Shown piece after piece: positions 135 to 48,505 of a stretch of 64,000 nt of DNA (positions are counted from its first letter, which is position 1; each line of letters opens with the position of its first letter). The stretch comes from Escherichia coli (GTDB lineage Bacteria > Pseudomonadota > Gammaproteobacteria > Enterobacterales > Enterobacteriaceae): the NCBI GenBank assembly GCA_029351405.1, contig GCA_029351405.1_4841.1. One strand, 5' to 3'. Both the position numbers and the translations under genes were made by a program. Below the pieces are notes generated by a model. That model was not told the origin of the DNA, did not search any database, and worked only from the letters and a program-made list of their open reading frames with translations.

Positions 135-1853
135 CTAAACCTCAAACACGGCATCAGTGAACCAAGCGGGGAAGAACTCTGGGTTGCGCATCATCAGTGA
201 TTCAAAAGAAGAATCAAGGATGTACGTCGCAGCCCAGTCATTCACGCCCCTGACCGAACGCCCACACATCTGAACGATACGCAGTACCGCCATCCTGAAG
301 TACGCCGATGGGTCCACACTGTTGACGTGGGCCACCAGAGGATCACCAAGGTAATCGTATGGCACCTTGATCAAGATCTGAAATCGACTATAATCGCCTT
401 TGAAGTCATACCCCTCTTCCATGGCCGGACTGGCGATGACACAAGGCGTCTTCGTCCTGAACGCGTGTTCCATGATGTCCATCAGAGCCTTACGGGTACG
501 AGGAACGTGAATCATATTCCGGTACTTACTGAACTTTTGTAGAGCCAGGGCGCGGTCATAACTCACGGTGTGGATGATACCAGACTGCCCAGGGTGGAAT
601 GCGATGATTTCATCCACGTATTCGGCCAGCTTCTTCATCTCATAGTCACCCATGTTCGCCGTCATCTTCATGATGGGCATGTAGTTGACTTTCCGGTTCT
701 CAATCGGGATAGGATTGCCGATCTGTATCTTGTGGTACTCACCCTCACGGATACCCAGTGACCGGGCGTACGAGTCAATCCCACAAATGGTCGCCGACAT
801 GTGAACGTGGTAGTCACCCTTGCGGAACAGACCGAACTGGGATACATCAGAGGCGATGACAGGCTTGAACTGAATCATACCCTTGTCCTTCTCCTGTACG
901 ATGAAAGTGCTGGCGTTGGTCTGCCCCATGATACCACAGTAGTCGCTGAGGTTGTGAAGAGTATCAATAATATCAGACAGCTTCATCACCTGGGCTTCAG
1001 TCAGGCGCTCGTCTTCTACCAGTTCCTCAAGAGTTTCCAGCAGGGATTCAACCTTGCCGTGTAGTTCATCAAATATCGCATGCATCTCACCAGACAGGGA
1101 ATACAGCTTGCCCAATTCATAGTTCTCTGTGCGCCTGATGATATCCTTGATGGTCTCCACGATAGGCACTCCCTCGGGGATCGTAAGCAGCCCTTCCACA
1201 GCCTTTGTGCTGTATTCCATGATAGTATGCTCTAGGAGCGTAGAGGGCATTTTATGACACTCGTCAAGGATCAGCATATCGGCGCGGTTTTCCGGCTTCA
1301 TACAGATCGTCGTGCACATCTCCACCATCATGGCGGCGTTGGTGCAGCGCAAGGAGGAGACGTCGGTCCACTGTCGACGCGCCTGAACATATGGGCAACG
1401 ATTCTTACTACAGTGGCCATCACGGCATGCCATACGACACTGAATGGCGTTGTAGTATAGGTCGGGACTGATGTGGCAACGATAGTTCTTCTTGCCCTTC
1501 AGGATGTCTATCGCCACGGCTTTCTCTGCTGCATACTGATCCTGTAAACCTTTGGTCGGCGTCGTGATAGACGTGCGAAACTGACCATACGGGTTGTGCT
1601 CAAGAACCAAATGGCGAAGCACGTTATGGATGGTAGTGCCGATGAGGGATTTACCCACACCAGTCGGAGCCTCGATGATCACGTGTTTGAATTTCTTATT
1701 CACAAGGGCATCAATGGCTTCAACGATGCACTCCATCTGGCCGGGGTTGGCGGTGTCATACGGGAAGAACTCAGTGGCAAGAGACTTGATGCGGTCTATG
1801 CTGACTGGTCCGACGCCGTCAAGCGCCTTGGTATATTGGTTGAATGCTGTCAC
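135..1853 (-). CDS. DinG/XPD (Rad3)-family SF2 helicase with Fe-S cluster domain
   Basis: 572-aa ORF; Walker A APTGVGKS, DECH (DEAH-type) box, four-Cys cluster (CHISPD...CRMACRDGHCSKNRCPY) typical of the XPD/DinG Fe-S domain; GTG start with AGGAGG RBS. Confidence 0.75.
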   Translation of the reverse strand: MTAFNQYTKALDGVGPVSIDRIKSLATEFFPYDTANPGQMECIVEAIDALVNKKFKHVIIEAPTGVGKSLIGTTIHNVLRHLVLEHNPYGQFRTSITTPTKGLQDQYAAEKAVAIDILKGKKNYRCHISPDLYYNAIQCRMACRDGHCSKNRCPYVQARRQWTDVSSLRCTNAAMMVEMCTTICMKPENRADMLILDECHKMPSTLLEHTIMEYSTKAVEGLLTIPEGVPIVETIKDIIRRTENYELGKLYSLSGEMHAIFDELHGKVESLLETLEELVEDERLTEAQVMKLSDIIDTLHNLSDYCGIMGQTNASTFIVQEKDKGMIQFKPVIASDVSQFGLFRKGDYHVHMSATICGIDSYARSLGIREGEYHKIQIGNPIPIENRKVNYMPIMKMTANMGDYEMKKLAEYVDEIIAFHPGQSGIIHTVSYDRALALQKFSKYRNMIHVPRTRKALMDIMEHAFRTKTPCVIASPAMEEGYDFKGDYSRFQILIKVPYDYLGDPLVAHVNSVDPSAYFRMAVLRIVQMCGRSVRGVNDWAATYILDSSFESLMMRNPEFFPAWFTDAVFEV

Positions 1854-5595: not shown

Positions 5596-6045
5596 TCAGA
5601 AACGGGTATCGCTGACCGTTCTGTATCGCACACCCTGAAACTGTTTAGCGAGTTTAACAAATTCCATCGCTGGTAAATCAACTTTGTAGACCTTCATGCG
5701 CTGTTTGCCGTCCATGTTCAACGCAGCGACAAATCGGTGTGAGCCGTCAACAACGTAATTGTCAGAAGACACCCAAACCCGACCCATAGGTTTCTTATTT
5801 CTGATGTTCTTCATGATCTTCCAGACCTTCATCTTGTTGATTTCGTTCTGGGTAAGACGAAGCATTTTGATGGGCACTTGCGCAGCATCTATGGACACGC
5901 CGTTGTCTTCAAGATATTTGTGAAAATCTTCTTGTTTGTCGGCATCGATTTGCGGCATAGAAGAACGAGAAAGCCCGAGGTTCCCAACAGGAATCCTCAG
6001 GCCGTTAATGATGTTCAACCAGTCAATAAAAGATGTAAGGAACAT
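5596..6045 (-). CDS. ParB-N-like (DGxHR motif) domain protein
   Basis: 149 aa; VVDGSHRFVAA resembles the ParB/sulfiredoxin-fold DGxHR motif; GAGGTG RBS. Confidence 0.4.
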   Translation of the reverse strand: MFLTSFIDWLNIINGLRIPVGNLGLSRSSMPQIDADKQEDFHKYLEDNGVSIDAAQVPIKMLRLTQNEINKMKVWKIMKNIRNKKPMGRVWVSSDNYVVDGSHRFVAALNMDGKQRMKVYKVDLPAMEFVKLAKQFQGVRYRTVSDTRF

Positions 6046-6077
6046 GACACACCTCGGGATATAGGGTTATCCCTTAG

Positions 6078-6236
6078 TTAGCGCATCCATCGATCCTTTC
6101 TCTCTTTCTCCTTGCGTTCGCGACGTTTCTGGTCGGATCGGAATAACCAATAGAAGAAGTTCCCACCCAAGATGAAAACCACCGCGATTATTACTAGGAC
6201 ACCCTTCACAATTTCCCAAACCAATTCTTTATCCAA
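6078..6236 (-). CDS. small single-pass membrane protein
   Basis: Hydrophobic segment VLVIIAVVFILGGNFFYWLF followed by basic tail RSDQKRRERKEKERK; probable TTG start just after upstream stop with GAGGTG RBS. Confidence 0.35.
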   Translation of the reverse strand: MDKELVWEIVKGVLVIIAVVFILGGNFFYWLFRSDQKRRERKEKERKDRWMR

Positions 6237-6237
6237 A

Positions 6238-6525
6238 TTACACCTCGTCTTCTTCAGGTCCACCGTCAATCAGGATACGAGCGGTGTCGAAAGTTTCCCC
6301 ACCCGTGTTCAACAGCTTGGTTAGATCATCAAGAGTACCGACAGGACCAAGATCAGCCTGGCGGAGAACGAACTCTAGAAGCCCGTAGAGCGCTGATTGG
6401 AAACGGGAGTTGTCGATATCGTTCTTGACTTCCATCAGGCGGACAACATTGGCAGACTGGACATAACTCAGCTGAGTCTTACCTTTTGCCATGTCTTTCA
6501 CGGAACGGCGTTGTTCAGGCGTCAT
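6238..6525 (-). CDS. hypothetical protein (95 aa)
   Basis: ATG with G-rich RBS; ATGA overlap with upstream gene. Confidence 0.45.
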   Translation of the reverse strand: MTPEQRRSVKDMAKGKTQLSYVQSANVVRLMEVKNDIDNSRFQSALYGLLEFVLRQADLGPVGTLDDLTKLLNTGGETFDTARILIDGGPEEDEV

Positions 6526-6899
6526 AATGTTCCACCCCCGACAGAGATCAAGAACTCTTCTTGCATGGTCTTGACCGGGTGGTGGTTTCGGATTTCGATC
6601 ATGAAGCCCCAGCCGCCGTCGGCGACGTTGCCAAAGGTCTTGACGCCAAAGGACTTCGTCCCGTTGGAGCAGGAATAGATGTCCAGGACGTATGGGCTAC
6701 CCTGATTGTCGATCCCACGATTCACGTCTTCTGATACGCAGCGCTCAATCATCTTCCCGTTCTTATACAGAACGAGGTCTTGGCCATACGCCTTGAAAGC
6801 ATAAACACCGTTGGTAGACACTCCGGTGATGACAGGAGGGGCGGAAACAGCAGCAAAGGAAGCGCCTAGCAGGGCAACAGCGAGGATTAACTTTTTCAT
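6522..6899 (-). CDS. secreted protein (125 aa)
   Basis: ORF trimmed to ATG 6899; N-terminus MKKLILAVALLGASFAAVSA is a signal peptide; CTATATC-ATG-AAAAA initiation motif. Confidence 0.5.
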   Translation of the reverse strand: MKKLILAVALLGASFAAVSAPPVITGVSTNGVYAFKAYGQDLVLYKNGKMIERCVSEDVNRGIDNQGSPYVLDIYSCSNGTKSFGVKTFGNVADGGWGFMIEIRNHHPVKTMQEEFLISVGGGTL

Positions 6900-6923
6900 G
6901 ATATAGTCTCTTGGTTTCAAATG

Positions 6924-6945
6924 GGCGGGGTATGATTACCCCGCC
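6924..6945 (-). terminator. hairpin GGCGGGGTA-TGAT-TACCCCGCC plus TTTGAAA tail
   Basis: Downstream of the 168-aa gene; same stem as the hairpin at 7484-7504. Confidence 0.45.
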
Positions 6946-6951
6946 GTGGGT

Positions 6952-7458
6952 TTATAGAGTAACAAGTGATACGGTAAAAACCATCGTCCCGTCTGTTGCC
7001 ATTTTTCTTGAAACTGGTATGACGCGAGGCTGGCAGAATATCCATTCTTTCTCCATGGACGCCAAGTCCAGCATATCCATTTCTGATTCATCGCCTTTGT
7101 TCACAAATTTTTCTAGAGAACCATAGACATTAAGCCCCTCCGGGAGTCCGTTTCGATGTTTGTAACAAATGCGGGCAACAGCTTTGGTTCCGTACGATTT
7201 AGAAAATTGTTTGGCCACATGCTTCAGTTCACTGAAGCTAAGACAAGAATCCCATGTCTGGAACATGTCGCCTCGTTCAAACATCATCTCTAAACGCGCA
7301 ACGTCCTCTTTAGGCAGCCCGCGATAAAGTGTGGTCGTCTGTGGTTCGCGTAATTCTTGCACCAGATCACGGACGGCAGGGGAAACAGTACCGGGGCGCA
7401 TTATGTGGGACTTATCATGGACGAGGTAAAATAAATCTTGAATTTGTTGATCGGTCAT
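6952..7458 (-). CDS. hypothetical protein (168 aa)
   Basis: ORF trimmed to ATG 7458 (MTDQQIQ...), AGGAA RBS, flanked by two copies of the same hairpin. Confidence 0.5.
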   Translation of the reverse strand: MTDQQIQDLFYLVHDKSHIMRPGTVSPAVRDLVQELREPQTTTLYRGLPKEDVARLEMMFERGDMFQTWDSCLSFSELKHVAKQFSKSYGTKAVARICYKHRNGLPEGLNVYGSLEKFVNKGDESEMDMLDLASMEKEWIFCQPRVIPVSRKMATDGTMVFTVSLVTL

Positions 7459-7483
7459 GGTATAGTTCCTGCATTTCAAATAG

Positions 7484-7504
7484 ACGGGGTAATCATACCC
7501 CGCC
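7484..7504 (-). terminator. hairpin CGGGGTA-ATCA-TACCCCG plus TTTGAAA tail
   Basis: Downstream of the 63-aa gene; copy of the 6924 hairpin with an inverted loop. Confidence 0.45.
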
Positions 7505-7564
7505 CAAAGTTATAGAATTAACTGATGTGCTTCAGAAGAGCGAAGAGGATCGCGGCCTTGGCCT

Positions 7565-7756
7565 TTACCTTTCCCACGATACCTGTCTCGACATCAACTT
7601 CTTCAGCAACCCACTCTTTCCCTTCTTGCTGATGATAACGTCACGACGCTGTGCGTAGACTTCTTTGGTCGCATACACACGACGGAACCCTTTAGCGCGG
7701 AGCAAGCCCCAATTGCGATCAATTTCTACTGAGGTTTCTACCATTTTGTTCTTCAT
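7565..7756 (-). CDS. hypothetical small protein (63 aa); possible -1 frameshift extension to 7511
   Basis: ATG at 7756; 0-frame stop at 7565; -1 frame stays open to 7511 (see slippery-site feature). Confidence 0.4.
   Translation of the reverse strand: MKNKMVETSVEIDRNWGLLRAKGFRRVYATKEVYAQRRDVIISKKGKSGLLKKLMSRQVSWER
7616..7622 (-). other. candidate -1 ribosomal slippery heptamer G_GGA_AAG
   Basis: Minus-sense codons AAG AAG GGA AAG place GGA and AAG in the zero frame, matching the X_XXY_YYZ pattern; the -1 frame is open for 35 further codons. Confidence 0.25.
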
Positions 7757-7807
7757 GTTATAATCTTACCTTTCAACCCGGTGAACCCATCGTTCGCCAG
7801 TTATTGA

Positions 7808-7837
7808 ATAATAGGACATTCCTTAGAGGAAGTAAAC
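7808..7837 (-). promoter_or_regulatory. sigma70-like promoter (GTTTAC-18 nt-TATTAT)
   Basis: Follows the terminator after the ACP-like gene and precedes the 63-aa gene. Confidence 0.35.
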
Positions 7838-7852
7838 CCCTAAAAGTAAAAA

Positions 7853-7872
7853 TCCCCAACGTTTGTTGGGGA
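7853..7872 (-). terminator. intrinsic terminator after the ACP-like gene
   Basis: TCCCCAAC-GTTT-GTTGGGGA followed on the minus strand by TTTTT. Confidence 0.55.
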
Positions 7873-7878
7873 CTTCTG

Positions 7879-8202
7879 TTATTTGCGCAGGGCAACTACG
7901 AGTTCAGCGAGTTCACCCATGGTCGGGTCATCACCTTTACTGCCCAGCCAACCATCGTCGATTTCGACCTGAAACTCTTCTTCGAGGTCCATTACAATTT
8001 CGATAGCGTCCAGTTCATCACCGCCGAGGTCTTTCTTGGTACGGAGGCCAGCCAGCTTGTCCAGGGCGTCCTCGTTCTGAGATGCCACGTCGTCCAGCAA
8101 TTTGCGCTTGTCATCGTCACGCCACAGATCCAAGTTCAGATTGTCAGTGGCGTACTGAGCCAGATGACGCATGACTTCAACATATGTTGGTTTGCTGCTC
8201 AT
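7879..8202 (-). CDS. acyl carrier protein-like protein (conserved Ser replaced by Glu)
   Basis: 107 aa; KDLGGDELDAIEIVMDLEEEFQVEIDD aligns with the ACP helix II region ([28 protein letters not shown]) but reads DEL instead of DSL; GGGAGA RBS. Confidence 0.7.
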   Translation of the reverse strand: MSSKPTYVEVMRHLAQYATDNLNLDLWRDDDKRKLLDDVASQNEDALDKLAGLRTKKDLGGDELDAIEIVMDLEEEFQVEIDDGWLGSKGDDPTMGELAELVVALRK

Positions 8203-8221
8203 GCTACTTCTCCCAAAGAAT

Positions 8222-8237
8222 GGCGGGTTGCCCCGCC
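8222..8237 (-). terminator. hairpin GGCGGG-TTGC-CCCGCC
   Basis: Between the vWA gene end and the ACP-like gene start. Confidence 0.35.
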
Positions 8238-8244
8238 CGTTGGA

Positions 8245-10446
8245 TTAGATTTTGATTTCTTTCTCTGTCAGTTCGGCAGTGACCTTGTACTTCACCCCAT
8301 CCACTTCAACTTCCATGGTGGACTCTTCCAGGTCGAGGTCGGTGAACCAGCCATGACCAGCAACGATACCATACACCACTTTAGACAGCGTCTTGTTCAG
8401 GGCGCGGACTTCGGTGATGGCCGCCTTGGTAGCAGCGTCGATCCAGTTTTCGATCAGCTGTTTCTGTAGGGCTTCAGGCACGGCAGTGATCATAGGAGAC
8501 TTCACAAATGCTTCGTACTCTTTCAGAGCATTGGCGATGAACAAGTCACCAGCATTGAGTTTCTTGTTCTCGGCGATCTTCTTCTGTACTGCCGCGATGC
8601 TCGGTAGTGAAGATGCCCCGGCGATCTTAACGTTCAGCTCACGGCTCATGTAGACGTCCGTGGAGTCCTTCAGTTCGGTCTTCGGTGAGAAGCCGTAATC
8701 GCGGATGCCGTAGGAGGACAGGAACTCGGCCGCCTCAGCGCCGTACTGTACTGCCAGGCCTTTGGCGTTACCCTTACCAACCAGGGCGTCTCGATAGAAC
8801 TTCAGTACCTTCTGCTTGCCTTTCAGGGCTTCCAGGCGGACATTATCCGCAAAGAACTGAGCAGCACTGATGTTCTTGACCATGGCGCGGTTGACCAGCG
8901 GTACGCTTTCCAGGTTCAGGATGAACACTTCCGGACCACCAAACACGTGGACGCCCATTTCGATCAGCTTCTGTACAACTTCGATATCAGCCTTGAACGG
9001 CAGAGTCTTCACGTTAATGATACCGTCTTTGACGATGGTGTAGTTGCGCCACTGGAAAGTATCCAGTTCTTCAGGCAGGCCAAACTTCTTCTGTGCGAAT
9101 TCAGGCACAGCCACAGTACCGTGTTGAATTGTACGCACACTGATGTTCGGGCGCTCGGAGTTATAGACCAAATCGCTGATTGGCACAACACCCAGGTCGT
9201 TGGTAGGTTCGAACGTCGGGTTCCACTCTTCGTGTTCTGCCAGCTTGAGAGCCAGGGCTTTACGCTCTTCTTTGGACTGAGCATTCGCGATCTGTTCTGC
9301 CAGCTTGTCTTCGGTGTCGTCGGTTTTCTGCACAGTACCGCGCCCGATACTCTTATAGGAGAACATCGGATGCTTGGTAGCAACAGGCACACCAGCTTCA
9401 GCCAGGTACGTCAGCACATCAACGACGGTTGTCGCATCTTCAGCCGGAACCATGTCATAGTCAATACCGTCAACGCCGCGCAGCTGGTCATCAACAATCG
9501 CCTGAACCAGATCGTTCTTGATGTTGGAGTAGTCCTGCTTGGTGAAGCAGTTGCTGTACTGTTTGATGAAGCGAACGTCGCCCGTCTTCTTCAGCGCAGC
9601 CCAAACCAGATCTGCGTCCATAGTGTGTACGCCGTAGAACGCCAGCACGTATGCCGCCTGGATGTCCGTCAGGCTATCCATCTGGTCGATCATGTTAGGG
9701 TTTACAACCCACAGCTTGGTGACGCTCTCAGGGATGCTCACATAGCCGACCGGGTGAGAGTCATCGTCCTGTACCGCCAGCACTGTTGCCACACCGTTTT
9801 CGACGTAGATTGCATGGGTGTAGATGACTGGGACATCAACTTTCACCTTCGGCACTGATGACTTCAGCACGTTTTCCAGTTCGTTCTGGTATTCGGTCTG
9901 ACCTTCGGCAAACACGTGAGTAGCACCGGAGCGTTCGGCCATCTGCGCCAGCAGTTCGCGGTTACAGTACCAGCCGTATTCGATAAATGTAATGTTATCG
10001 AAAGCAAATGGCAGGGTCTCAGCAACCAGTAAGATTTCGTTGGTACGCCAGCAGTTGTCATAACCATCGGTCATGAATGCCAGGTTGTTGACGTAGCCAG
10101 GTTTCTTCAGGTCACGCGCAGTATCCATCGCCAGTTTCAATGGCTCAACGAAACCAGTACAGCCGGATGGTTGCAGGAAACGGTCGATCAGTTTGTTCAG
10201 CTCGCTCAGGTCAGATGCGACACCGATCTGACGCCCGGCAAATACCGTTCCGAAATCACCGCGAGATGAAAAGTAAAGGATGCTCACAGTATCTTCGGGT
10301 TTCACCAGGGAAGGTAGGTTCTCCTTCAGATGCTTACGGACTTCTGGAAGTGAACGATACATGGAACCGGAGATATCCACAACGATTACATGGTTAGACG
10401 GCGCGACGGTCGCAACCGCATTCTTAAATGTTAATGATTCAATCAT
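8245..10446 (-). CDS. von Willebrand factor type A (vWA) domain protein
   Basis: ORF 8245-10584 trimmed to ATG 10446 (MIESLTF...); N-terminal MIDAS motif VVDISGSM ... MTDGYD; about 500-aa uncharacterised C-terminal region. Confidence 0.7.
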   Translation of the reverse strand: MIESLTFKNAVATVAPSNHVIVVDISGSMYRSLPEVRKHLKENLPSLVKPEDTVSILYFSSRGDFGTVFAGRQIGVASDLSELNKLIDRFLQPSGCTGFVEPLKLAMDTARDLKKPGYVNNLAFMTDGYDNCWRTNEILLVAETLPFAFDNITFIEYGWYCNRELLAQMAERSGATHVFAEGQTEYQNELENVLKSSVPKVKVDVPVIYTHAIYVENGVATVLAVQDDDSHPVGYVSIPESVTKLWVVNPNMIDQMDSLTDIQAAYVLAFYGVHTMDADLVWAALKKTGDVRFIKQYSNCFTKQDYSNIKNDLVQAIVDDQLRGVDGIDYDMVPAEDATTVVDVLTYLAEAGVPVATKHPMFSYKSIGRGTVQKTDDTEDKLAEQIANAQSKEERKALALKLAEHEEWNPTFEPTNDLGVVPISDLVYNSERPNISVRTIQHGTVAVPEFAQKKFGLPEELDTFQWRNYTIVKDGIINVKTLPFKADIEVVQKLIEMGVHVFGGPEVFILNLESVPLVNRAMVKNISAAQFFADNVRLEALKGKQKVLKFYRDALVGKGNAKGLAVQYGAEAAEFLSSYGIRDYGFSPKTELKDSTDVYMSRELNVKIAGASSLPSIAAVQKKIAENKKLNAGDLFIANALKEYEAFVKSPMITAVPEALQKQLIENWIDAATKAAITEVRALNKTLSKVVYGIVAGHGWFTDLDLEESTMEVEVDGVKYKVTAELTEKEIKI

Positions 10447-10615
10447 CGTTTTGACCTTTTTGGGCTTTGGAGTGTTTGGAGTTCGCGTCGGCGTTCTCCA
10501 GCATAGTTTCAATGAAATCCCGGTTGTTTTCCATTTGGGCGACCAGAACATCACTGGGGCGGAATGATTTGTCAAGACAATCAAGTCCGGCGCGTTTTAA
10601 TTTGTTGTCGGTCAT
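10439..10615 (-). CDS. small hypothetical protein
   Basis: 58 codons from ATG 10615 (listed ORF begins at a TTG); weak RBS. Confidence 0.25.
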   Translation of the reverse strand: MTDNKLKRAGLDCLDKSFRPSDVLVAQMENNRDFIETMLENADANSKHSKAQKGQNDD

Positions 10616-10660
10616 CAGGCTCTCGTGAGTTATATTTCCCAACTATTTCAACATGGAACT

Positions 10661-10691
10661 ATTATATTACGACAGGCGGTATTGATGTCAA
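10661..10691 (-). promoter_or_regulatory. sigma70-like promoter (TTGACA-17 nt-TAATAT)
   Basis: Minus-strand TTGACATCAATACCGCCTGTCGTAATATAAT in the AT-rich spacer upstream of the vWA operon. Confidence 0.4.
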
Positions 10692-10765
10692 TTAATATAA
10701 TAAAAATACCCGATTGAATATAACCGGGCATTATATTATTGACAGGTTGAAATATTATTCAGAGC

Positions 10766-11638
10766 TTATTTAAAGGAGTCTACAATGGATTTGAAAATAT
10801 AATCTTTGGAGCGCTGTTGTACCGGGAGTTCTCCATACGGAACCATGCAAGGGTGTTGTTTGGTCTGAGGGTCTTTGACTGGGCCATACACCCAACCCTC
10901 AGACTCCTTCTCCGCCATCCATCTCTCATGCGATTCGCTGGGCTTACGATCACCAGTGAGGTGGAAGATAACACCTTTGCAAGCGCTCTCACGTTGCCAG
11001 GCCGGAGATTGTTCCCAAGGCAGTTGAGAGTCGTCACCAACAGACTTACAGTATGCGCGGTTGGCTTCATGACAAATCTTGGCGATGCGCAGAACCAATG
11101 GCGAATAAGTGAGATCGAGTTTGGAGTTGGCGCGCAGGAAATCACTAACAGTCTTACGAGATTTGGCGTTATGAGATTCAACAACAAGTTCCATGTCATC
11201 CGGCCCACAAACGAAAGACGCCAAGAAGCGCTCACCATTTTCCGCTCTGAACGTCACGTCCTGAATCATCACATTGAAGCCGAGGTGATAGGCCGGATAG
11301 AGGGCGCTACGTTCAACAGCGTATTGATCGATCCGGATCTCTGCCGTTTCCGTGGCTTTGGCCAACAGATCTTGTTCAACAAGCGCCCGGTACGTCTCGA
11401 GCTGCCACAGCTGGTCGAAGGTATTATTGTAGGAAATCTCTTTGCCCAGGGCTTCATCGAAGTTGGCAGGGTCTATGGATGTGCTGGGCTTGGTGCCGTG
11501 AACGACGAAGCCGTTATCCATCTTGAAATGACAAGTGATAGCCCGGTGACCGCCGACTTCGCGGTCTTCGTAAATCACCTCAGCGATATGTGACTTCAGG
11601 ACTTCAGGAGTGAGTTTTATGCCAGTACGAGTTGTCAT
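10766..11638 (-). CDS. hypothetical two-domain protein (C-terminal RyR-like region suspected)
   Basis: 290 aa; the C-terminal stretch HERWMAEKESEGWVYGPVKDPQTKQHPCMVPYGELP resembles phage RyR-domain proteins; not verifiable without HMM search. Confidence 0.5.
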   Translation of the reverse strand: MTTRTGIKLTPEVLKSHIAEVIYEDREVGGHRAITCHFKMDNGFVVHGTKPSTSIDPANFDEALGKEISYNNTFDQLWQLETYRALVEQDLLAKATETAEIRIDQYAVERSALYPAYHLGFNVMIQDVTFRAENGERFLASFVCGPDDMELVVESHNAKSRKTVSDFLRANSKLDLTYSPLVLRIAKICHEANRAYCKSVGDDSQLPWEQSPAWQRESACKGVIFHLTGDRKPSESHERWMAEKESEGWVYGPVKDPQTKQHPCMVPYGELPVQQRSKDYIFKSIVDSFK

Positions 11639-11646
11639 GTGTTATC

Positions 11647-12021
11647 CTATGATAGTTGTTTACAGACCTCCACTACTTTACGACACATATCGATATTGAA
11701 CAACCCAATATGACAATCGCGCTTCTTGATCCCCAGCTTATGCGCCAGCCAACTGTAAGCGTCGCTCCTGCTCAACTCTCCGCTTTTCCACAGTGGGTCA
11801 AACGATCTATGGGCTTCCTGCTTAGCAGCACGGAGAGCGGCATTCGCCATCCTTCCCAAAGGTTGTCTGCCGTCGCCATGGGCATGGCAACCGACACGGG
11901 CATCACATGGGGTACATACCCAGAACTTCAGATTGCGGAGGTCAGGACGATGAGGGTAGAGAACATCACCACCGACGAATTCGGCTGGGAGGCCACAGTA
12001 ATCACATATAACAGGTTCCAT
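11647..12021 (-). CDS. zinc-ribbon protein
   Basis: ORF trimmed to ATG 12021; CDYCG ... CTPCD cysteine pairs. Confidence 0.45.
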   Translation of the reverse strand: MEPVICDYCGLPAEFVGGDVLYPHRPDLRNLKFWVCTPCDARVGCHAHGDGRQPLGRMANAALRAAKQEAHRSFDPLWKSGELSRSDAYSWLAHKLGIKKRDCHIGLFNIDMCRKVVEVCKQLS

Positions 12022-12040
12022 ATTCTTTGTCCAAAAGAAA

Positions 12041-12057
12041 CCCCGCACATGGCGGGG
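12041..12057 (-). terminator. hairpin CCCCGC-ACATG-GCGGGG plus T-tract
   Basis: Downstream of the 123-aa gene. Confidence 0.45.
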
Positions 12058-12081
12058 TTGCTCAGGCCGAGGCCAACAGGG

Positions 12082-12453
12082 TTATTTCAGCAGCGCTTCC
12101 AGTTCTTCAATAGATTTGCCTTCCAGCTCCTGCTGTTTCTTACGCTGGATCAGCTCCAGGATAACCTGGTTGTTCGCCTTACGCTCTGCCGCGTCTTTGA
12201 TGTCGTCGCGTTCTTTCAGCTTAACACCGATGATGTGCTTGACAACGTCGAAGCGCAGCTGCAATTCGGAATCAACGTTGCTTTTGGTGCCAATGAAATC
12301 TTCTTCATCGGTTTCTGCTGCTTTCACCTGACGGCTCAGACCTTTCGCCATTTCGTTCAGGGCGGTCAGGCTCAGATCCCAAACCTGCTCAACAGACAGC
12401 AGACCTTTGTTAGACTCGAAGCGCAGTTTCAGACGGGTTACTTTATCAAACAT
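12082..12453 (-). CDS. hypothetical coiled-coil protein
   Basis: 123 aa, charged heptad-like C-terminus; GAGGA RBS. Confidence 0.5.
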   Translation of the reverse strand: MFDKVTRLKLRFESNKGLLSVEQVWDLSLTALNEMAKGLSRQVKAAETDEEDFIGTKSNVDSELQLRFDVVKHIIGVKLKERDDIKDAAERKANNQVILELIQRKKQQELEGKSIEELEALLK

Positions 12454-12497
12454 TTTACTATCCTCAATGATGAATGGGTCACAATTTCAAATCAGGT

Positions 12498-14516
12498 TTA
12501 GAACACAACTTTCACAGTGCGGTTGAACGAGCCGCTCACCTTCACGAACACGTGGTTGCGTTGGGTGGTAGAGAAGCCCAGACCGGACAGCTGCTCAGTG
12601 CTTGGCTGTACTTTAATCTTACCACCTAACATTTCAAAAACCTTGCGGTGTTTATCAAGTTCCGGCTTCAGATATTCGTTATAGAAGCCACGGGTGCCGA
12701 CAGGGTTAGCACAACCTTCCAGGATGAAGAACACGTGCTTGTTGCCAGTCTGCTCACCGTCCCAATGGTTTGGTGAGTTCAGAACCAGCTGTACCTTCTG
12801 GAAGACCGAGGTCTTGATGCCCCAGATTTCCTGAGAGCGAGCGTCGTCCTTCAGGGTAGAACGGATGTCTACCACCTGACCAGCGCGGACATCAATCACA
12901 ACAGCCAGAGTGCGATCTTTGTGCTTCAGACCAGGATGCGAAAAACGCTTGGTCTGGCCTTTGTATTCAACTTCGATTTCGAAGCCCATATCACAGGTTT
13001 CACGCTGGCTGAAGTTAGTGACATAGAACTCGTACAGACCATCACGCAGCTTGCGTTCATCGCTGAAGAAGATGTTCTCCACCGGGCGGCGGTTGGGATC
13101 AATGCCGTCCATACCGTTCATGTCGATATCCAGGGTTGCGCCAGTTGCCGAACGACGGTTGTGATAATACACGTGGTTGTGAAGAGGATCGTTCAGGCTC
13201 AGATCCAGGTCGTCGTTGTTATGCCAAGCCAGTGACACGCGGAGGAAGCTGTCGACATTGCCGCCTGCGGTCTTCACGCGCTCTTTGATAGAGTCGGCCA
13301 CTTCGCCATTGTACGACCAGCTGAAGCCGTTGTTCCACTTGAACAGGTTAGGAGCGCCTGCGGTAGCCGGAGCGATCAGGGACATCAGGTTGCCAATGTG
13401 AGAGTTTTCGACCAGCACTTCCAGGGAATGCGCCTTTGGCAACACGTTGGTCAGGAAGTCGTCGATCGTGATCTCTTCAACCTTGTCCAGGGACTTGGTC
13501 GGAGTCTTCACTTCAGACGCCAGCTGAGCAAACGGGTCCATCTTCTTCTGAGCTGCCAGATCGGCGAACAGAACGTTGTTGATGGTCAGATCGTCATACA
13601 CGGCATAACGGCGACCCAGTGAATCAGTCAGACCCAGCGCTTCGACTTCTTTCTGCGCGTTTTCAATCATAGACTTCGTGACCAGCGCGGTTGGGCGCTT
13701 GTAGTTCGTCGGAGCGACTTTGGTTTCAAAGGACTTCACGGCGGTTTCCAGATCCCGGCCTTCATTGAGGTCTACCAGCAGAGAGCCAATCACGGTATTA
13801 CGAATGCCGTGAGGGGTATGACCGTTTGCACGGTAGCCAGTGCGCCAAGCCCACAGAGCGCGTTTCTCTTCTGCAGTTTGTTCGTACAGGGTCTTGTTCA
13901 CCACAAACGCCTGCACTGCCGCTTTGTGCTCTTCACCGCGATACAGAGAATTCTGGTCGATCAATTCCAGAACGATTTCAGCCGATTCCAGAGACAGTTC
14001 ACGCAGGCCGCGCTCAAACACTTCAATCGCCTGGCGGATTTCACCCTTCTTAGAAGCGATGGCATCTGCCCGCAGAACATAGCTGCCCAGCAGGTCGGTG
14101 TGGAAGTGGTTGTAGGTGCGGACAATACCGTCTTTCATTTCGTGATTCGACCCAACACCAACTTTCTTGGTGTCGTTGAAGTACACGTCGACGATTGCGT
14201 GCTGCTTAACATACGCTGACAGCGCCGCAGCGACAACGTCATATTCGTTACCCAGCTGAATGTTATCCCAGATAGAGATCACGTTCAGGTCGGAGTCGAT
14301 GGTGACCACACCGCCGATGTTACGGATGAATTGTTTACAGCAGGTGCAGTCGTGCTCGGTACGCTCACGGTAGAGCGGGTTGGTACCAGCAGGGAAAGAA
14401 GACAGATACAGATCCCACAGAGCATCTTTATCGATGTTGGTCATGAACAGACCAGTTGCTGACATGGCCAGCACGTTATTGTTGACAGCTACTGCGAAGG
14501 GCTTAAAATCTGACAT
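12498..14516 (-). CDS. large hypothetical protein (672 aa)
   Basis: Uninterrupted ORF, ATG with AGGAAG RBS; no Walker or GHKL motifs seen. Confidence 0.6.
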   Translation of the reverse strand: MSDFKPFAVAVNNNVLAMSATGLFMTNIDKDALWDLYLSSFPAGTNPLYRERTEHDCTCCKQFIRNIGGVVTIDSDLNVISIWDNIQLGNEYDVVAAALSAYVKQHAIVDVYFNDTKKVGVGSNHEMKDGIVRTYNHFHTDLLGSYVLRADAIASKKGEIRQAIEVFERGLRELSLESAEIVLELIDQNSLYRGEEHKAAVQAFVVNKTLYEQTAEEKRALWAWRTGYRANGHTPHGIRNTVIGSLLVDLNEGRDLETAVKSFETKVAPTNYKRPTALVTKSMIENAQKEVEALGLTDSLGRRYAVYDDLTINNVLFADLAAQKKMDPFAQLASEVKTPTKSLDKVEEITIDDFLTNVLPKAHSLEVLVENSHIGNLMSLIAPATAGAPNLFKWNNGFSWSYNGEVADSIKERVKTAGGNVDSFLRVSLAWHNNDDLDLSLNDPLHNHVYYHNRRSATGATLDIDMNGMDGIDPNRRPVENIFFSDERKLRDGLYEFYVTNFSQRETCDMGFEIEVEYKGQTKRFSHPGLKHKDRTLAVVIDVRAGQVVDIRSTLKDDARSQEIWGIKTSVFQKVQLVLNSPNHWDGEQTGNKHVFFILEGCANPVGTRGFYNEYLKPELDKHRKVFEMLGGKIKVQPSTEQLSGLGFSTTQRNHVFVKVSGSFNRTVKVVF

Positions 14517-14630
14517 GATGTAATCTTCCTGTTTCAGTTCAAATGTGCGCCCCGTTTGCCAGGGCGCTTCGTTTAAGTGAGGTCAATATACGCTGGATTG
14601 AGTTATTGAAGAACGAAGTAAAGGGAATCT

Positions 14631-15854
14631 TTATTCAGGTTTCTTCAAACGGTCCAGCAAATTGACGGAACCACGTTTGAGCACGACTTCATCACAGCGC
14701 TTTTTGTATTCCCCACCGCCGTCATAGCTGACCTTGCCCCGAGGTTTTTCACCGCGCCCAACCGCCTCAACACAGCGGGTGTACTTGCTCAGTTCACAGA
14801 ACATGTTCTCCAGCTGCATAACGTTCATGCACTGATCTACAGGCTCTTCAGCCGACCAGAATTGCTCACGAACATACCCATATTGGGAATACACCGCGTC
14901 CTGATTGTCCCGCAACCAGAAGATGCATTCTTCATGCGTCATGCCATCTTTGTCCTGGAACATCAGATCAATCCCTGCGCGACAGCCTGGTCCAGCAACC
15001 GTGAAGTGGTTCTCACTGAAAGGATATCCAGGAATGTACGTGAAATCAACCCAGATCTGATAGGCCAGGAATGGACCAAGCCCTTCGATGTCGTCATACA
15101 TGCGCTGGTATACTTCCAGAGGAGTACCAAGGCGCAGCAAGTCATGGAAATAGTTTGGATACTTGTTGACGAATGCCTTCAGAGAACGGATAACACGCAT
15201 CGGCATGTATGGTTCCCATCCCTCGATGGTATATTCACCAGGATTCTCTTCGACCAGCTTTTTGGCGACCTTGTAGTCCATCTCGTCCACAATACCCTGG
15301 CCAACGCGATACACTTTCACCATCATCCCACCGAAGCGCTGCTCCTTGTGGTTGACAACCAGCTCAGGGAAAGCCAGGCATTGCTTCAGGCCGCCCGTGT
15401 TGAAGGCATTGGTGAATACCTTACCGCCGTCGGCCTCGAACTTCTGAAGTCGTTCGCGGGTTGCATCAAGGTTGATCTTGGCGAATTCTTTGATCGTCAT
15501 CGCGCCGCCGATAGCCTGGATTGGATCCCAGAGGTTGAACATGCGGAACAACACGCAGTTGAACATCTTGTCGGCCATACCCAGAGCATCGTTGTTGACG
15601 ATGTTGTTGATCAGGTTGAGAGACTGCCTGTCGTGCTCTCTCCGGACATTACAGAACTTGACCTGCCGTAATATGGGATTATCAGTCCAAGGAGCAGGAA
15701 GGCGCTGGACATCCTTCTTGACGTGGATCTGATAACGATCGCGCATCCATTCGTAAGACAGGCGGGTATGGGTCGGACTGAGAACCGGTTTGGCCGACTT
15801 TATCTTTTCTTCACGGACACCGCAGTACGGGACGTCTAGGGCTTTATCTTTCAT
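14631..15854 (-). CDS. hypothetical protein (407 aa)
   Basis: ATG with AGAGGA RBS; no recognisable catalytic motif by eye. Confidence 0.6.
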   Translation of the reverse strand: MKDKALDVPYCGVREEKIKSAKPVLSPTHTRLSYEWMRDRYQIHVKKDVQRLPAPWTDNPILRQVKFCNVRREHDRQSLNLINNIVNNDALGMADKMFNCVLFRMFNLWDPIQAIGGAMTIKEFAKINLDATRERLQKFEADGGKVFTNAFNTGGLKQCLAFPELVVNHKEQRFGGMMVKVYRVGQGIVDEMDYKVAKKLVEENPGEYTIEGWEPYMPMRVIRSLKAFVNKYPNYFHDLLRLGTPLEVYQRMYDDIEGLGPFLAYQIWVDFTYIPGYPFSENHFTVAGPGCRAGIDLMFQDKDGMTHEECIFWLRDNQDAVYSQYGYVREQFWSAEEPVDQCMNVMQLENMFCELSKYTRCVEAVGRGEKPRGKVSYDGGGEYKKRCDEVVLKRGSVNLLDRLKKPE

Positions 15855-15922
15855 GGTATCCTCTTAGAATACGAAAACAGAGGCCATTATAGCCTCTGTT
15901 GTTTAGTGAATAACTGTATATC

Positions 15923-16795
15923 TTAATCGATACGGGTCAGTTGGGTGATAGATGATTGCACTGGGCTGGCCACATAGATACGGACGTTGGCTTTCCATTC
16001 ACCCCAGATCAACGGTAGAGTTGGAAAGTTGTCTTCATTGAAAACAAACACGGGAATGTAGCTCTCGACTGTTTCGCCAGAGAACGCCTGGAAGCCCATC
16101 TTGGTGTATCCCACGATCTCGTCAATAAAATCGAACGGCGCGTAGGCAACACCAGCATGTTCGTTGCATCCGAGTCGACCTGGGGTAGCCGTGCCCGTCA
16201 GAATGATTTCGGTGATCTGGCGCTTAGGCTCGGTGGTCAACATATCAGAGAAGTCAGGCTCTTTGAAGGTTGCCATGTTCTTCAGGAACTTGCCAGCCGG
16301 GTATTCTTTGCCGTCGACGGTGATGGTGTTCACCACTTTGATACACGCCTGAGGGAATTCCCCTTCGATGCGCAGACTTTCGCGTGGGAAGCCTTTGTTG
16401 TAGTAGTAATCCAGTGCTGGCACAACTTCACCTTCATTACGGATGAACTTGCTCATGTTAGAGGCATACACGCGTTGTAGGCATTCGTCACCGTCGAAAC
16501 CAGCAATATGAGCCACACCGTCGTTGACTGTTGTGATGTCGCCCTGAGCATCCATGATCTGGCGCATAATGCCTTTGATGTCGACAACAACGGGTTCTTT
16601 CAGGACTCGCGGAGATGCAGTGAACTCAATTTTCACCTCATGGTCGAAATACGCCGCTTCCAGCAGTTCACGGGTTTCTTCCAGCACCAGTTTCGCCTGA
16701 TTGCGGATCTTGTCAAAATTGGGCGACGTGACATCGCCCTTTGCATTACCGAAAGCCAGATTCAGATTCACGTTCTTAGAAAATGTAGTTGTCAT
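15923..16795 (-). CDS. hypothetical protein (290 aa)
   Basis: ATG with GGAG RBS; sits where T4 has gene 43, downstream of regA. Confidence 0.55.
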   Translation of the reverse strand: MTTTFSKNVNLNLAFGNAKGDVTSPNFDKIRNQAKLVLEETRELLEAAYFDHEVKIEFTASPRVLKEPVVVDIKGIMRQIMDAQGDITTVNDGVAHIAGFDGDECLQRVYASNMSKFIRNEGEVVPALDYYYNKGFPRESLRIEGEFPQACIKVVNTITVDGKEYPAGKFLKNMATFKEPDFSDMLTTEPKRQITEIILTGTATPGRLGCNEHAGVAYAPFDFIDEIVGYTKMGFQAFSGETVESYIPVFVFNEDNFPTLPLIWGEWKANVRIYVASPVQSSITQLTRID

Positions 16796-35355: not shown

Positions 35356-37251
35356 TCAGGAAGCGGCTACGATACCACCGCCAGTTTCGATCTCGCTGAA
35401 CTCCATGTCCGGACGTACCGCAGCAAAGTCCAGATACACCCAGTTGATGGAGTATTCTGGTTTCAGCCAGATACCCGCGACCATCTGGTTCGCAGCGATA
35501 ACATCAGCGGTGTTATTGTCCTCGTCACACTTCACCATCCCGTCATAGATCGCGCCCATGTTGGCCAACTGGCGGATATATGGGCGGACAGCGTTGCTGA
35601 ACAACCCACGAGTGAATGCATCGTTGTTCTCACCAAGGTAGTATTTGGCGATGGCTGCGATATTCTGCTCTGCCATAATGAACAGACCACGAACGTTGAT
35701 GCGGTCGAACGCAGATGGGCGGGTCAGGCCAGTCTTGTCGCCGTACAACACGATGCCTTCGTTGGAGAAGGTGACGATGCTGTTGATCTGGTTGCGATAC
35801 AGCACAGCACGCTCATCAGAAGACGCAGACCACGCCATTCGATTATAGTTGTTGTATTTACCACGGTTGTGGAACGCTGGAGATTTGTAGATACCCGCGA
35901 TTTCAATGCTTCGCGCCCAAACACCTGCGGTGCCGCCACAAGCCGGAATCCAACGCATTTTGTCGTTGTACTTGTCGTACACATACGCCCAGTTGTCATC
36001 CATGAAGAAGTAGGAGGAGTCGCGAACAAGGCTTTCACGCCAGGCCACAACATCATCCATCTCACGGCCACGGTTTCCGACGACCGTATCGCGAAGAGGA
36101 GACACAAAGGACACTGTGTCTTTACGCTCAGTGGACAGGTCGATCAGTGCCTGCTGCTCAATCAGTTCTTCACAGAAACCGAACACTGGCTTGGCATCAT
36201 ACGCTTCGGCGTTGTTCAGTGCCTGGATAGCCGCAACACGGTTCCCAGTGTAATCGTCTACACCACCTTCGAGTTCAATGACACCAGCAGCCAGGGTAGT
36301 GGCGAAGGTGTACACCCAATTTGAGGTGCCGTTGATCACGTCTTTGAAGTACGCATTGGATCCATCAGATTTCTTAGAACCCTGAGCGGTCTGCACCAGT
36401 TCATACTTCTCGATGATCGTACCGGAAGCGCCAACAGTGGTGACGGCAGCGGTAGCAGTCAGACCATTCGCGTCTGGAACAATCGCAGTCGCAGCCTGAG
36501 GACCGATTGCTTTGTGGGTGACGGTGACGGTGTTGGACTTCACGACAACAGAAGAATACACGTCAGACAGAGACGTCAGCGCGGTTCCGATCTTTGTCGC
36601 CAGAGTCGCCGGAGTATCAGCGTCAGTGTACGCCACGGCTTCCCCAGCAACAGAGATGGAACCAGCAGCGGTGGCAGTACCGGATACAGAGATACGATCA
36701 ACCTGGCTAACAGCGCCAGAAGAGTCTGTGATGCGACCTACTTTGTCAACGATGGCGATATGGTACTCGCCAGCCTGCGGAGCATATGCGAAGTTGTTAC
36801 GGAATTCCCAGGTCGGGAACAGTGCAGCATCACAGATGTTCACAGCAATGTCGTTACCCAGAGAGCCAGCATAGCGGCCTGTCCAAGTAATAGACGCAGA
36901 TGGGGACGCAGTTTCGAAGTCTAGTTTGTTGCGGATAAGGATTGCAGTCTGACCTTTGGTTACAGCGTTGCGTGCCGCCGGACCGACCACACGGGTCACC
37001 CATGCAACAGAGCTGTAAGACAGGAAGTCAGCAATCACCAAGAAGTCGGTGGCAGTTGCATCGTTTGGCTTGAAGAATTTCTTTACCAGACCAGTTTCGC
37101 CACCAGTGACCAACACAGGGAGTTCTGCTTCACCCCATTGGAATTTGCCGACAGTCGCACCCTGAACAACAACGGATGGAGACGTCTGAAGCGTGGCATC
37201 ACGCTCAGTCCACTGTACGGACGGCGCAACGCTGAAGCTTTGAGTTGCCAT
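35356..37251 (-). CDS. tail sheath protein (gp18-like)
   Basis: ORF trimmed to ATG 37251 with GAAGGA RBS; about 630 aa, T4 gp18 size and position; late-promoter motif upstream, hairpin terminator downstream. Confidence 0.85.
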   Translation of the reverse strand: MATQSFSVAPSVQWTERDATLQTSPSVVVQGATVGKFQWGEAELPVLVTGGETGLVKKFFKPNDATATDFLVIADFLSYSSVAWVTRVVGPAARNAVTKGQTAILIRNKLDFETASPSASITWTGRYAGSLGNDIAVNICDAALFPTWEFRNNFAYAPQAGEYHIAIVDKVGRITDSSGAVSQVDRISVSGTATAAGSISVAGEAVAYTDADTPATLATKIGTALTSLSDVYSSVVVKSNTVTVTHKAIGPQAATAIVPDANGLTATAAVTTVGASGTIIEKYELVQTAQGSKKSDGSNAYFKDVINGTSNWVYTFATTLAAGVIELEGGVDDYTGNRVAAIQALNNAEAYDAKPVFGFCEELIEQQALIDLSTERKDTVSFVSPLRDTVVGNRGREMDDVVAWRESLVRDSSYFFMDDNWAYVYDKYNDKMRWIPACGGTAGVWARSIEIAGIYKSPAFHNRGKYNNYNRMAWSASSDERAVLYRNQINSIVTFSNEGIVLYGDKTGLTRPSAFDRINVRGLFIMAEQNIAAIAKYYLGENNDAFTRGLFSNAVRPYIRQLANMGAIYDGMVKCDEDNNTADVIAANQMVAGIWLKPEYSINWVYLDFAAVRPDMEFSEIETGGGIVAAS

Positions 37252-48061: not shown

Positions 48062-48094
48062 TTTGATGCTCCATCGATAGGTGCCATTATAGAG

Positions 48095-48102
48095 ATATTT
48101 AG
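48095..48102 (-). promoter_or_regulatory. late-promoter-like motif CTAAATAT
   Basis: About 35 nt upstream of the 1612-aa gene start at 48061. Confidence 0.45.
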
Positions 48103-48483: not shown

Positions 48484-48499
48484 CCCCGCCGAAGCGGGG
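48484..48499 (-). terminator. hairpin CCCCGC-CGAA-GCGGGG (after the first tailspike gene)
   Basis: Third copy of the same hairpin. Confidence 0.55.
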
Positions 48500-48505
48500 T
48501 TATTA

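What the first reader, a model, noticed from the sequence alone, without database searches (positions are those of the whole stretch)
8245..10446. Stand-alone vWA (MIDAS) protein with a large unknown C-terminal region
The N-terminus has a clear vWA MIDAS motif (VVDISGSM ... MTDGYD), followed by about 500 aa without recognisable motifs. vWA proteins usually pair with a MoxR/CobS-type AAA+ ATPase, but none is adjacent in this window; the partner may be host-encoded or elsewhere in the genome.
Basis: partly seen in the sequence, partly recalled or inferred. Interest (0 to 1): 0.4.

Follow-up and report, generated by a model that had tools for sequence, protein, structure and literature searches.

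The report
Conserved phage vWA protein, no ATPase partner
This gene of a ViI-like (Ackermannviridae) phage encodes a real, widely conserved non-virion protein with an intact metal-dependent protein-binding (vWA/MIDAS) domain and about 410 further residues that resemble no solved structure; its function is unknown, and it does not belong to the vWA systems that work with a MoxR/CobS ATPase.

Summary
Window 8245-10446 (minus strand) encodes a 733-aa protein. Its N-terminus is a vWA domain, and the five MIDAS residues (D24, S26, S28, T97, D127) are invariant in 55 homologs of 33-90% identity.

The window is an Ackermannviridae phage. The protein is PHROG 2426 (function unknown). It is present at full length in about 500 phage genomes and in at least 1,351 clusters at 50% identity, including contigs of 130-512 kb.

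That is not supported:
- The vWA domain is N-terminal, whereas CobT carries it at the C-terminus.
- No neighbouring gene family recurs in more than 4 of 32 lineages.
- A MoxR-like gene lies nearby in only 1 of 32 lineages.
- None was found in a close relative's whole genome.

Published virion proteomics found 1 spectrum against 924 for the capsid protein, so the 'tail protein' annotations are unreliable.

Most likely this is a cytoplasmic, MIDAS-dependent binding adaptor. That mechanism is inferred, not shown. Interest is modest.

The parts
8245..10446 (-). CDS of the 733-aa vWA protein (PHROG 2426), stop codon included
9862..10446 (-). vWA domain, aa 1-195
10363..10377 (-). MIDAS motif D24-I-S26-G-S28 (DxSxS)
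   Evidence: invariant in 55 homologs; aligned with the ITIH1 motif whose Asp is Ala in 6fpz
10156..10158 (-). MIDAS Thr97
   Evidence: invariant
10066..10068 (-). MIDAS Asp127 (within TDG)
   Evidence: invariant
9487..9861 (-). beta-sandwich (aa ~196-250) plus helical bundle (aa ~252-318). Together with the vWA domain this forms the ArnB/Sec23-24-like core. Boundaries are approximate.
8248..9486 (-). family-specific C-terminal module, aa ~321-733. Mixed alpha/beta. Invariant residues include R432-P433-N434, D474-G475, K546, D597 and Y599. No known relative.
10439..10615 (-). small upstream ORF (58 aa from the ATG at 10615; phrog_11447). Its stop overlaps the vWA start (ATGA). Conserved only within Ackermannviridae.
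10664..10691 (-). sigma-70-like promoter match TTGACA-16-TAATAT upstream of the two-gene unit
   Evidence: 10 of 12 matches; kept as TTGGCA in Det7 and vB_CECAV_050, absent in May and phiMAM1. This is a consensus match only.
10705..10732 (-). terminator-like hairpin that closes the preceding gene
8222..8237 (-). terminator-like hairpin GGCGGG-GCAA-CCCGCC, 8 nt after the stop codon
   Evidence: a terminator is annotated at the same place in Klebsiella phage May

Best explanation
The gene encodes a soluble, acidic protein of an Ackermannviridae phage that acts inside the infected cell and is not part of the virion. It belongs to a large, architecturally fixed phage family (PHROG 2426).

The N-terminal ~320 residues form a vWA domain with a complete MIDAS, a beta-sandwich and a helical bundle. 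This core arrangement is also found in ArnB, Sec23/24, ITIH and Catenulispora 4fx5. The remaining ~410 residues are a family-specific module with no solved structural relative.

Proposed mechanism, by step:
- Inferred: the MIDAS holds a divalent cation and completes its coordination with an acidic (or phosphorylated) side chain of a partner protein. The protein would therefore be a metal-dependent binding adaptor.
- Inferred: the C-terminal module, which is as conserved as the MIDAS, supplies a second binding or catalytic activity.
- Shown at the genomic level only: it works without a dedicated, co-encoded AAA+ ATPase.
- Inferred: it is made before the late phase. It forms a two-gene unit with a sigma-70-like promoter match and lies among replication and nucleotide-metabolism genes.

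The identity of the ligand is unknown.
For: MIDAS: D24, S26, S28, T97 and D127 are invariant in 55 homologs and are kept in 6 bacterial-genome homologs.

Fixed architecture: a profile of the C-terminal part finds 1,351 cluster representatives. In most of the top 150, proteins of ~680-820 aa, the module starts at residue ~195-250; about a dozen are shorter proteins holding the module alone.

Not a virion protein: 1 spectrum against 924 for the capsid protein in CsCl-purified Sajous1 virions, the same level as the clamp loader and thymidylate synthase.

Soluble: pI 5.1 and no hydrophobic segment.

Genomic setting: it lies among clamp loader, RegA, helicases, MazG, thymidylate synthase, DHFR, dCMP deaminase or DNA polymerase genes in the window and in distant phages.

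No dedicated partner: no neighbour family recurs in more than 4 of 32 lineages. The upstream small ORFs are unrelated between lineages.

Transcription unit: promoter-like and terminator-like sites bracket the small ORF and the vWA gene.
Against: No experiment bears on function. No ligand, metal binding or timing of expression has been measured for any family member. The promoter is only a consensus match and is not conserved in Taipeivirus or Miltonvirus. An intact MIDAS does not by itself prove a protein ligand. The conserved polar residues of the C-terminal module (R432, N434, D474, K546, D597, Y599) could form an enzyme active site, in which case 'adaptor' would be an incomplete description. 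A host-encoded AAA+ partner is not excluded. Model coordinates could not be inspected, so it is unknown whether the MIDAS face is exposed or is occupied by the protein's own C-terminal module.
Confidence: 0.55

Rival explanations
1. It is the substrate adaptor of a MoxR/CobS/BchI-type AAA+ ATPase that is encoded by the host or elsewhere in the phage genome.
Against: The vWA domain is N-terminal, while CobT has it at the C-terminus. There is no Pfam CobT or CobT_C match, nor any match to another AAA-partner-type family. The best structural matches belong to the class that has no AAA+ partner. A MoxR-like neighbour is present in only 1 of 32 lineages. None was found in a close relative's complete genome, by annotation or by Walker-A scan. 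The hosts range from Enterobacteria to Rhizobium and Bacillus, so one common host ATPase would have to be assumed.
Confidence: 0.08
2. It is a virion (tail or minor tail) protein, as several GenBank records annotate it.
For: It is annotated as 'tail protein' or 'minor tail protein' in vB_CECAV_050, FKP14, phi1_146041, phi1_146007 and Roth90. Some pilus and adhesin tip proteins carry vWA domains.
Against: Virion proteomics of Sajous1 gave 1 spectrum, against 924 for the capsid protein and 43-125 for tail fibre and spike proteins. The gene lies in the replication and nucleotide-metabolism region, separated from the structural module. It is preceded by a sigma-70-like promoter match rather than sitting inside the late structural genes. 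PHROG 2426 itself has no assigned function, so these names probably come from fold-level similarity of the vWA domain (my inference).
Confidence: 0.04
3. It is an accessory factor of phage DNA replication, repair or nucleotide metabolism. It could regulate a helicase, as the TFIIH p44/Ssl1 vWA subunit regulates XPD, or the C-terminal module could itself be an enzyme or bind nucleic acid.
Against: The match to p44 covers only the generic vWA fold (171-195 residues). The Rad3-like helicase is not seen in the Slopekvirus-type Klebsiella phages that carry the vWA protein: 44 Klebsiella records hold the helicase against 160 that hold the vWA protein, judged from genus counts, not record by record. 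No neighbour is conserved. The protein is acidic overall. No nucleic-acid-binding or enzyme fold was detected.
Confidence: 0.18
4. It is a host-takeover or anti-defence factor that uses the MIDAS to sequester a conserved host protein.
For: It appears to be expressed from a host-type promoter among non-structural genes. It is stand-alone. vWA domains are generic protein-capture modules.
Against: It is listed among the conserved proteins of 150 Vi01-like phages, and it is conserved at full length across phages of very different hosts. Anti-defence genes are usually patchy and fast-evolving (my knowledge). There is no PADLOC match and no literature link.
Confidence: 0.12

Closest known systems
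ArnB / ArnE (Sulfolobus acidocaldarius) and the bacterial structural orthologs 4fx5 (Catenulispora acidiphila vWA) and YfbK
   Different: Sequence identity is only 12-17%. The phage protein carries a further ~410 residues that ArnB lacks. No ArnA-like FHA/zinc-finger partner, kinase or phosphatase is nearby, and zinc-ribbon neighbours are not enriched. [quoted passage not shown]
Sec23/Sec24 (COPII inner coat) trunk, beta-sandwich and helical core
   Different: There is no zinc finger and no gelsolin domain was detected. The phage protein has an intact MIDAS. Nothing suggests a membrane-coat function.
Inter-alpha-trypsin inhibitor heavy chains (ITIH1/ITIH4)
   Different: ITIH proteins are secreted eukaryotic proteins with a VIT domain and their own C-terminal region. 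The phage protein has neither a VIT domain nor a signal peptide.
Phage and cellular CobT-CobS, BchD-BchI and MoxR-vWA pairs (NorD/NorQ, ViaA/RavA, CbbO/CbbQ)
   Same: All have a vWA domain with a MIDAS. Phages do encode cobST pairs.
PHROG 2426 / GenBank 'VWA domain-containing protein' of Ackermannviridae, Slopekvirus, Karamvirus-like, Takahashivirus and Kleczkowskaviridae phages
   Same: The window protein is a full-length member (1228 bits over the whole profile; 97% identical to the Escherichia phage AV101 protein).
   Different: Nothing differs. This is the family itself, and its function is unassigned.

Membership tests
vWA domain superfamily with functional MIDAS | Rossmann-like alpha/beta vWA fold | tested here: met
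vWA domain superfamily with functional MIDAS | Complete MIDAS: DxSxS, then Thr, then Asp | tested here: met
   D24, S26, S28, T97 and D127 are invariant in 55 homologs. The motif aligns with that of ITIH1. Metal binding itself cannot be tested here.
PHROG 2426 (phage vWA protein family) | Full-length match to the family profile | tested here: met
   1228.5 bits, covering aa 1-733 against profile positions 2-736 of 736.
ArnB / Sec23-24-type vWA architecture | vWA domain followed by a beta-sandwich and a helical bundle | tested here: met
ArnB / Sec23-24-type vWA architecture | Beta-sandwich topologically split by the vWA insertion (strands before and after the vWA domain) | tested here: inconclusive
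   Only one short N-terminal strand (aa 4-6) precedes the vWA domain. Model coordinates could not be inspected.
ArnAB regulatory module | FHA/zinc-finger partner (ArnA) and Ser/Thr kinase or phosphatase control | tested here: not met
   No conserved neighbour of any kind. Zinc-ribbon ORFs are not enriched near the gene: 2.4% near against 2.7% further away. No such proteins are annotated in the relative's genome.
MoxR-vWA / chelatase (CobS-CobT, BchI-BchD) systems | Adjacent or co-encoded MoxR/CobS/BchI-type AAA+ ATPase | tested here: not met
   None in the window. None in a close relative's whole genome. A MoxR-like ORF lies within 8 kb in 1 of 32 lineages.
MoxR-vWA / chelatase (CobS-CobT, BchI-BchD) systems | vWA/MIDAS at the C-terminal end, preceded by an ATPase-interacting region; match to the CobT/CobT_C profiles | tested here: not met
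   The vWA domain is at aa 1-195 of 733. No CobT-type Pfam match in any of the 55 members. CobT architecture as given in PMC8651126.
Phage tail / virion structural protein | Present in purified virions at structural abundance; encoded in the structural module | tested here: not met
   1 spectrum against 924 for the capsid protein (PMC10892097 Table 6). The gene lies in the replication region.
Known anti-phage defence components (PADLOC) | Match to a defence-system protein model | tested here: not met
   No PADLOC match at E<=0.01.

The most novel reading that the evidence does not exclude
The ~410-residue C-terminal module is a previously undescribed fold, possibly an enzyme or a new binding module, because its invariant Arg/Asn/Asp/Lys/Tyr residues are as conserved as the MIDAS. 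Fused to an ArnB/Sec23-24-like vWA core, it would define a widespread system of large phages (at least 1,351 clusters at 50% identity, contigs of 130-512 kb) that captures one universal phage or host target in a metal-dependent way, without any AAA+ motor.
Probability: 0.25. Interest if true: 0.55.

Novelty: new variant of a known kind. Interest (0 to 1): 0.33.

Why it matters
The family is one of the larger conserved 'dark matter' proteins of big virulent phages. It is a core gene of Ackermannviridae, several of which are being considered as therapeutic or biocontrol phages. It is also present in Slopekvirus, Karamvirus-like, Rhizobium and Bacillus phages and in contigs up to 512 kb.

Two practical points follow. 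It is not a tail protein, and it is not part of a MoxR/CobS system, so a recurring mis-annotation can be corrected and experiments need not search for an ATPase partner.

If the C-terminal module proves to be a new fold or enzyme, it would add a new kind of effector to the vWA repertoire. It would also extend the ArnB/Sec23-24-type architecture to viruses. The invariant MIDAS gives a clean handle for mutational and pull-down tests.

Tried and rejected
- Sequence searches on the C-terminal region found nothing. This covers Pfam on aa 250-733 at E<=10, Pfam on all 55 members, NCBIfam and PADLOC, and a profile search of PDB sequences, which found only the ITIH vWA domain.
- The search for a conserved partner was negative. 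I inspected neighbourhoods in Matisse, Internexus, RHph_TM30 and five metagenomic contigs. I then clustered all ORFs within +/-8 kb in 85 loci. No family recurs in more than 4 of 32 lineages.
- The 672-aa neighbour (12498-14516) has a different phage distribution, so it was rejected as a partner.
- The translationally coupled small upstream ORF is not homologous between lineages.
- The idea of a Rad3/XPD-like helicase as a p44-style partner failed, because co-occurrence is only partial.
- The idea of an ArnA-like zinc-finger partner failed, because zinc-ribbon ORFs are not enriched nearby.
- Literature searches for a function of this family found nothing beyond genome annotations and one proteomics table.
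- The bacterial-genome homologs (6 loci) gave no informative context.

Full report
**1. The observation**

The minus strand of the window carries an ORF from the ATG at 10446 to a stop at 8245-8247, giving 733 aa. The longest possible ORF starts further upstream at a TTG. The ATG at 10446 overlaps the stop codon of a small upstream ORF (ATGA), and every homolog starts at the equivalent position.

Pfam VWA matches aa 20-183 at E=1.2e-5 and 26 bits, just above the curated cut-off of 23.8. 52 of 55 family members match VWA_2.

In an alignment of 55 full-length homologs of 33-90% identity, all five MIDAS positions (D24, S26, S28, T97, D127) are invariant. They are also kept in six homologs found in bacterial genome assemblies. 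In a profile search of PDB sequences, the DxSGS motif aligns with that of ITIH1 (6fpy). The companion entry 6fpz differs in having Ala at the position aligned with D24.

**2. Where the gene sits**

The window is an Ackermannviridae (ViI-like) phage. The protein is 97% identical to that of Escherichia phage AV101, and window 6000-16000 is 94.7% identical in DNA to the Agtrevirus vB_CECAV_050.

All neighbours lie on the same strand:
- an acyl-carrier-like protein downstream;
- a gp49_66/RyR-domain protein, a DUF3268 zinc-finger protein and a 672-aa protein of unknown function upstream;
- further upstream, a 5-hmdU DNA kinase, MazG, RegA, clamp loader and sliding clamp;
- a Rad3/XPD-like helicase further downstream.

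The structural module begins about 18 kb away.

A sigma-70-like promoter match (TTGACA-16-TAATAT, 10691-10664) follows a terminator-like hairpin. It precedes a 58-aa ORF that is translationally coupled to the vWA gene. A GC-rich hairpin follows the stop codon. The promoter-like element is kept in Det7 and vB_CECAV_050 but not in Klebsiella phage May or Serratia phage phiMAM1. Early expression is therefore an inference, not a result.

**3. The family**

The protein matches PHROG 2426 (function unknown) over its whole length. tblastn finds it in 504 phage records, 489 of them at full length. These include Ackermannviridae, Slopekvirus (Matisse, 50% identity), Karamvirus-like phages (49%), Bacillus phage Internexus (26%) and Rhizobium phages (23%).

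An exhaustive profile search with the C-terminal 538 residues alone found 1,351 cluster representatives at E<=0.001, 881 of them at E<=1e-30. In most of the top 150, proteins of about 680-820 aa, the module starts at residue ~195-250; about a dozen are shorter proteins (397-611 aa) that hold the module alone and may be fragments. The two-part architecture is therefore largely fixed.

IMG/VR holds members on contigs of 130-512 kb. Only six loci were found in 185,579 species genomes, although that search used a single peptide pattern.

**4. Structure**

These alignments extend about 100 residues beyond a vWA domain. They correspond to the strands at aa 200-248 and the helices at aa 252-318. The ArnB paper describes exactly this arrangement (vWA, beta-sandwich, helical bundle) and lists 4fx5, YfbK and Sec23/24 as structural relatives (PMC12852372). 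vWA domains that work with AAA+ partners score lower (NorD 17.9, BchD 15.9).

Within this region several blocks are as conserved as the MIDAS: aa 461-480 and aa 581-620. Invariant polar residues include R432, N434, D474, K546, D597 and Y599. The protein is acidic (pI 5.1) and has no hydrophobic segment. Two helical stretches are basic.

**5. The AAA+ partner question**

Four lines of evidence argue against a dedicated one.
- Architecture. In CobT the vWA/MIDAS lies in the C-terminal region, and phages carry cobS-cobT as an adjacent pair (PMC8651126). Here the vWA domain is N-terminal, and none of the 55 members matches CobT-type Pfam models.
- Neighbourhood. I clustered all ORFs within +/-8 kb in 85 loci representing 32 lineages (vWA proteins grouped at 60% identity). 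No family recurs in more than 4 lineages. The top three are the 672-aa protein, the clamp loader and topoisomerase II.
- P-loop ORFs. A Walker-A scan of those neighbourhoods followed by Pfam found one bpMoxR/AAA_5-like ORF, in a single lineage.
- Whole genome. The complete genome of vB_CECAV_050 has no annotated MoxR/CobS gene. Its only Walker-A ORFs of note are DnaB, a 5-hmdU DNA kinase subunit, PhoH and the Rad3-like helicase.

A host-encoded ATPase cannot be excluded. It would have to be common to Enterobacteria, Rhizobium and Bacillus.

**6. The tail-protein annotation**

Several GenBank records call the protein a 'tail protein' or 'minor tail protein'. In LC-MS/MS of CsCl-purified Sajous1 virions, the VWA protein (gp185) gave 1 spectrum. 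The major capsid protein gave 924 and tail fibre and spike proteins gave 43-125. The single spectrum is at the level of the clamp loader, thymidylate synthase and dUTPase, which the authors consider likely contaminants (PMC10892097, Table 6). Together with the gene's position, this makes a structural role very unlikely.

**7. Other partners considered**

- The 672-aa neighbour has a different distribution (Caulobacter, Vibrio, Pseudomonas and Microcystis phages).
- The coupled upstream small ORF is not homologous between lineages.
- Zinc-ribbon ORFs, which could play an ArnA-like role, are not enriched nearby.

The only recurring theme is a loose placement among replication and nucleotide-metabolism genes.

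**8. Interpretation**

Shown:
- a real, strongly conserved protein that is essentially absent from virions;
- a complete, invariant MIDAS;
- an ArnB/Sec23-24/ITIH-type core;
- a C-terminal module with no known relative;
- no genomically linked partner.

Inferred:
- it acts in the infected cell as a cation-dependent binding adaptor whose MIDAS engages an acidic or phosphorylated residue of a partner;
- the C-terminal module provides a second, unknown activity;
- it is expressed before the late phase.

I put about 0.55 on this general picture. The rivals are a replication or nucleotide-metabolism accessory or enzyme (0.18), host takeover or anti-defence (0.12), adaptor of a host AAA+ ATPase (0.08) and virion protein (0.04). 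The replication-accessory and host-takeover rivals are more specific versions of the general picture rather than strict alternatives to it.

**9. Novelty and score**

The family is already catalogued (PHROG 2426; 'VWA domain-containing protein' in GenBank), but nobody has assigned it a function. Three points are added here: its core is of the ArnB/Sec23-24 type, the remaining ~410 residues have no structural relative, and it is not a MoxR/CobS-type system or a tail protein.

That makes it a new variant of a known kind. It is a useful correction and a reasonable target for experiments, but not a surprise to a specialist. Interest 0.33.

Noticed in passing
window 12498-14516 (-): A 672-aa protein (phrog_1735) with no Pfam, NCBIfam or PADLOC match. 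It is present in 557 phage records from very different groups (Ackermannviridae, Caulobacter, Bacillus, Vibrio, Pseudomonas and Microcystis phages). Some records call it 'DNA-directed RNA polymerase'. Its function is unexplained.
   Followed up: partly
window 14631-15854 (-), and vB_CECAV_050 36111-36812: The helical-domain protein of 5-hmdU DNA kinase lies in the window (HMUDK_hel, E=5e-82). The kinase subunit (HMUDK_HMUD1) lies elsewhere in the relative's genome. This indicates a phage with hypermodified thymidine.
   Followed up: no
window 7879-8202 (-): An acyl-carrier-protein-like gene lies directly downstream of the vWA gene. The order small ORF, vWA gene, ACP-like gene is syntenic in Det7, May and phiMAM1, with a terminator between the vWA gene and the ACP-like gene.
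   Followed up: partly
window 135-1853 (-): A Rad3/XPD/DinG-type helicase (DEAD plus Helicase_C_2). It is shared with Vibrio and Rhizobium phages, Prevotella Lak phages and haloarchaeal HF2-like viruses.
   Followed up: partly
window 6952-7479 (-): A 175-aa protein that matches only the C-terminal part (positions 1265-1425 of 1480) of phrog_832, 'RNA polymerase ADP-ribosylase'. It may be a stand-alone ADP-ribosyltransferase domain.
   Followed up: no
window 10766-11638 (-): A 290-aa protein that combines an N4 gp49 / Sf6 gp66 family domain with a RyR domain. vB_CECAV_050 annotates it as 'minor head protein'.
   Followed up: no
L007 7140-9287, L010 7236-9416, L018/L019 6001-8190: Full-length homologs lie on large contigs assigned to Novimethylophilus kurashikiensis and Achromobacter anxifer, and the two checked keep an intact MIDAS. 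A further homolog lies on metagenomic contigs. The neighbours look cellular rather than phage-like: ABC/HlyD/TolC export, ClpP-like protease, ankyrin repeats, MBOAT and GDSL lipases.
   Followed up: partly
L073, ORF 1 (about 7 kb upstream of the vWA homolog): A 374-aa bpMoxR/AAA_5-like ATPase lies near the vWA homolog in one metagenomic phage lineage only. Whether it pairs with this protein or with another vWA gene was not examined.
   Followed up: no
window 10600-10790 compared with Det7 (L023 110-300): The intergenic region with the promoter-like element and the start of the small ORF is almost identical between the window and Det7. The adjacent vWA proteins are only 82% identical.
   Followed up: no
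window 48001-54000: G+C drops to 41-45%, against 48-53% elsewhere. The drop lies over the tail-spike genes and is consistent with exchange of receptor-binding modules.
   Followed up: no
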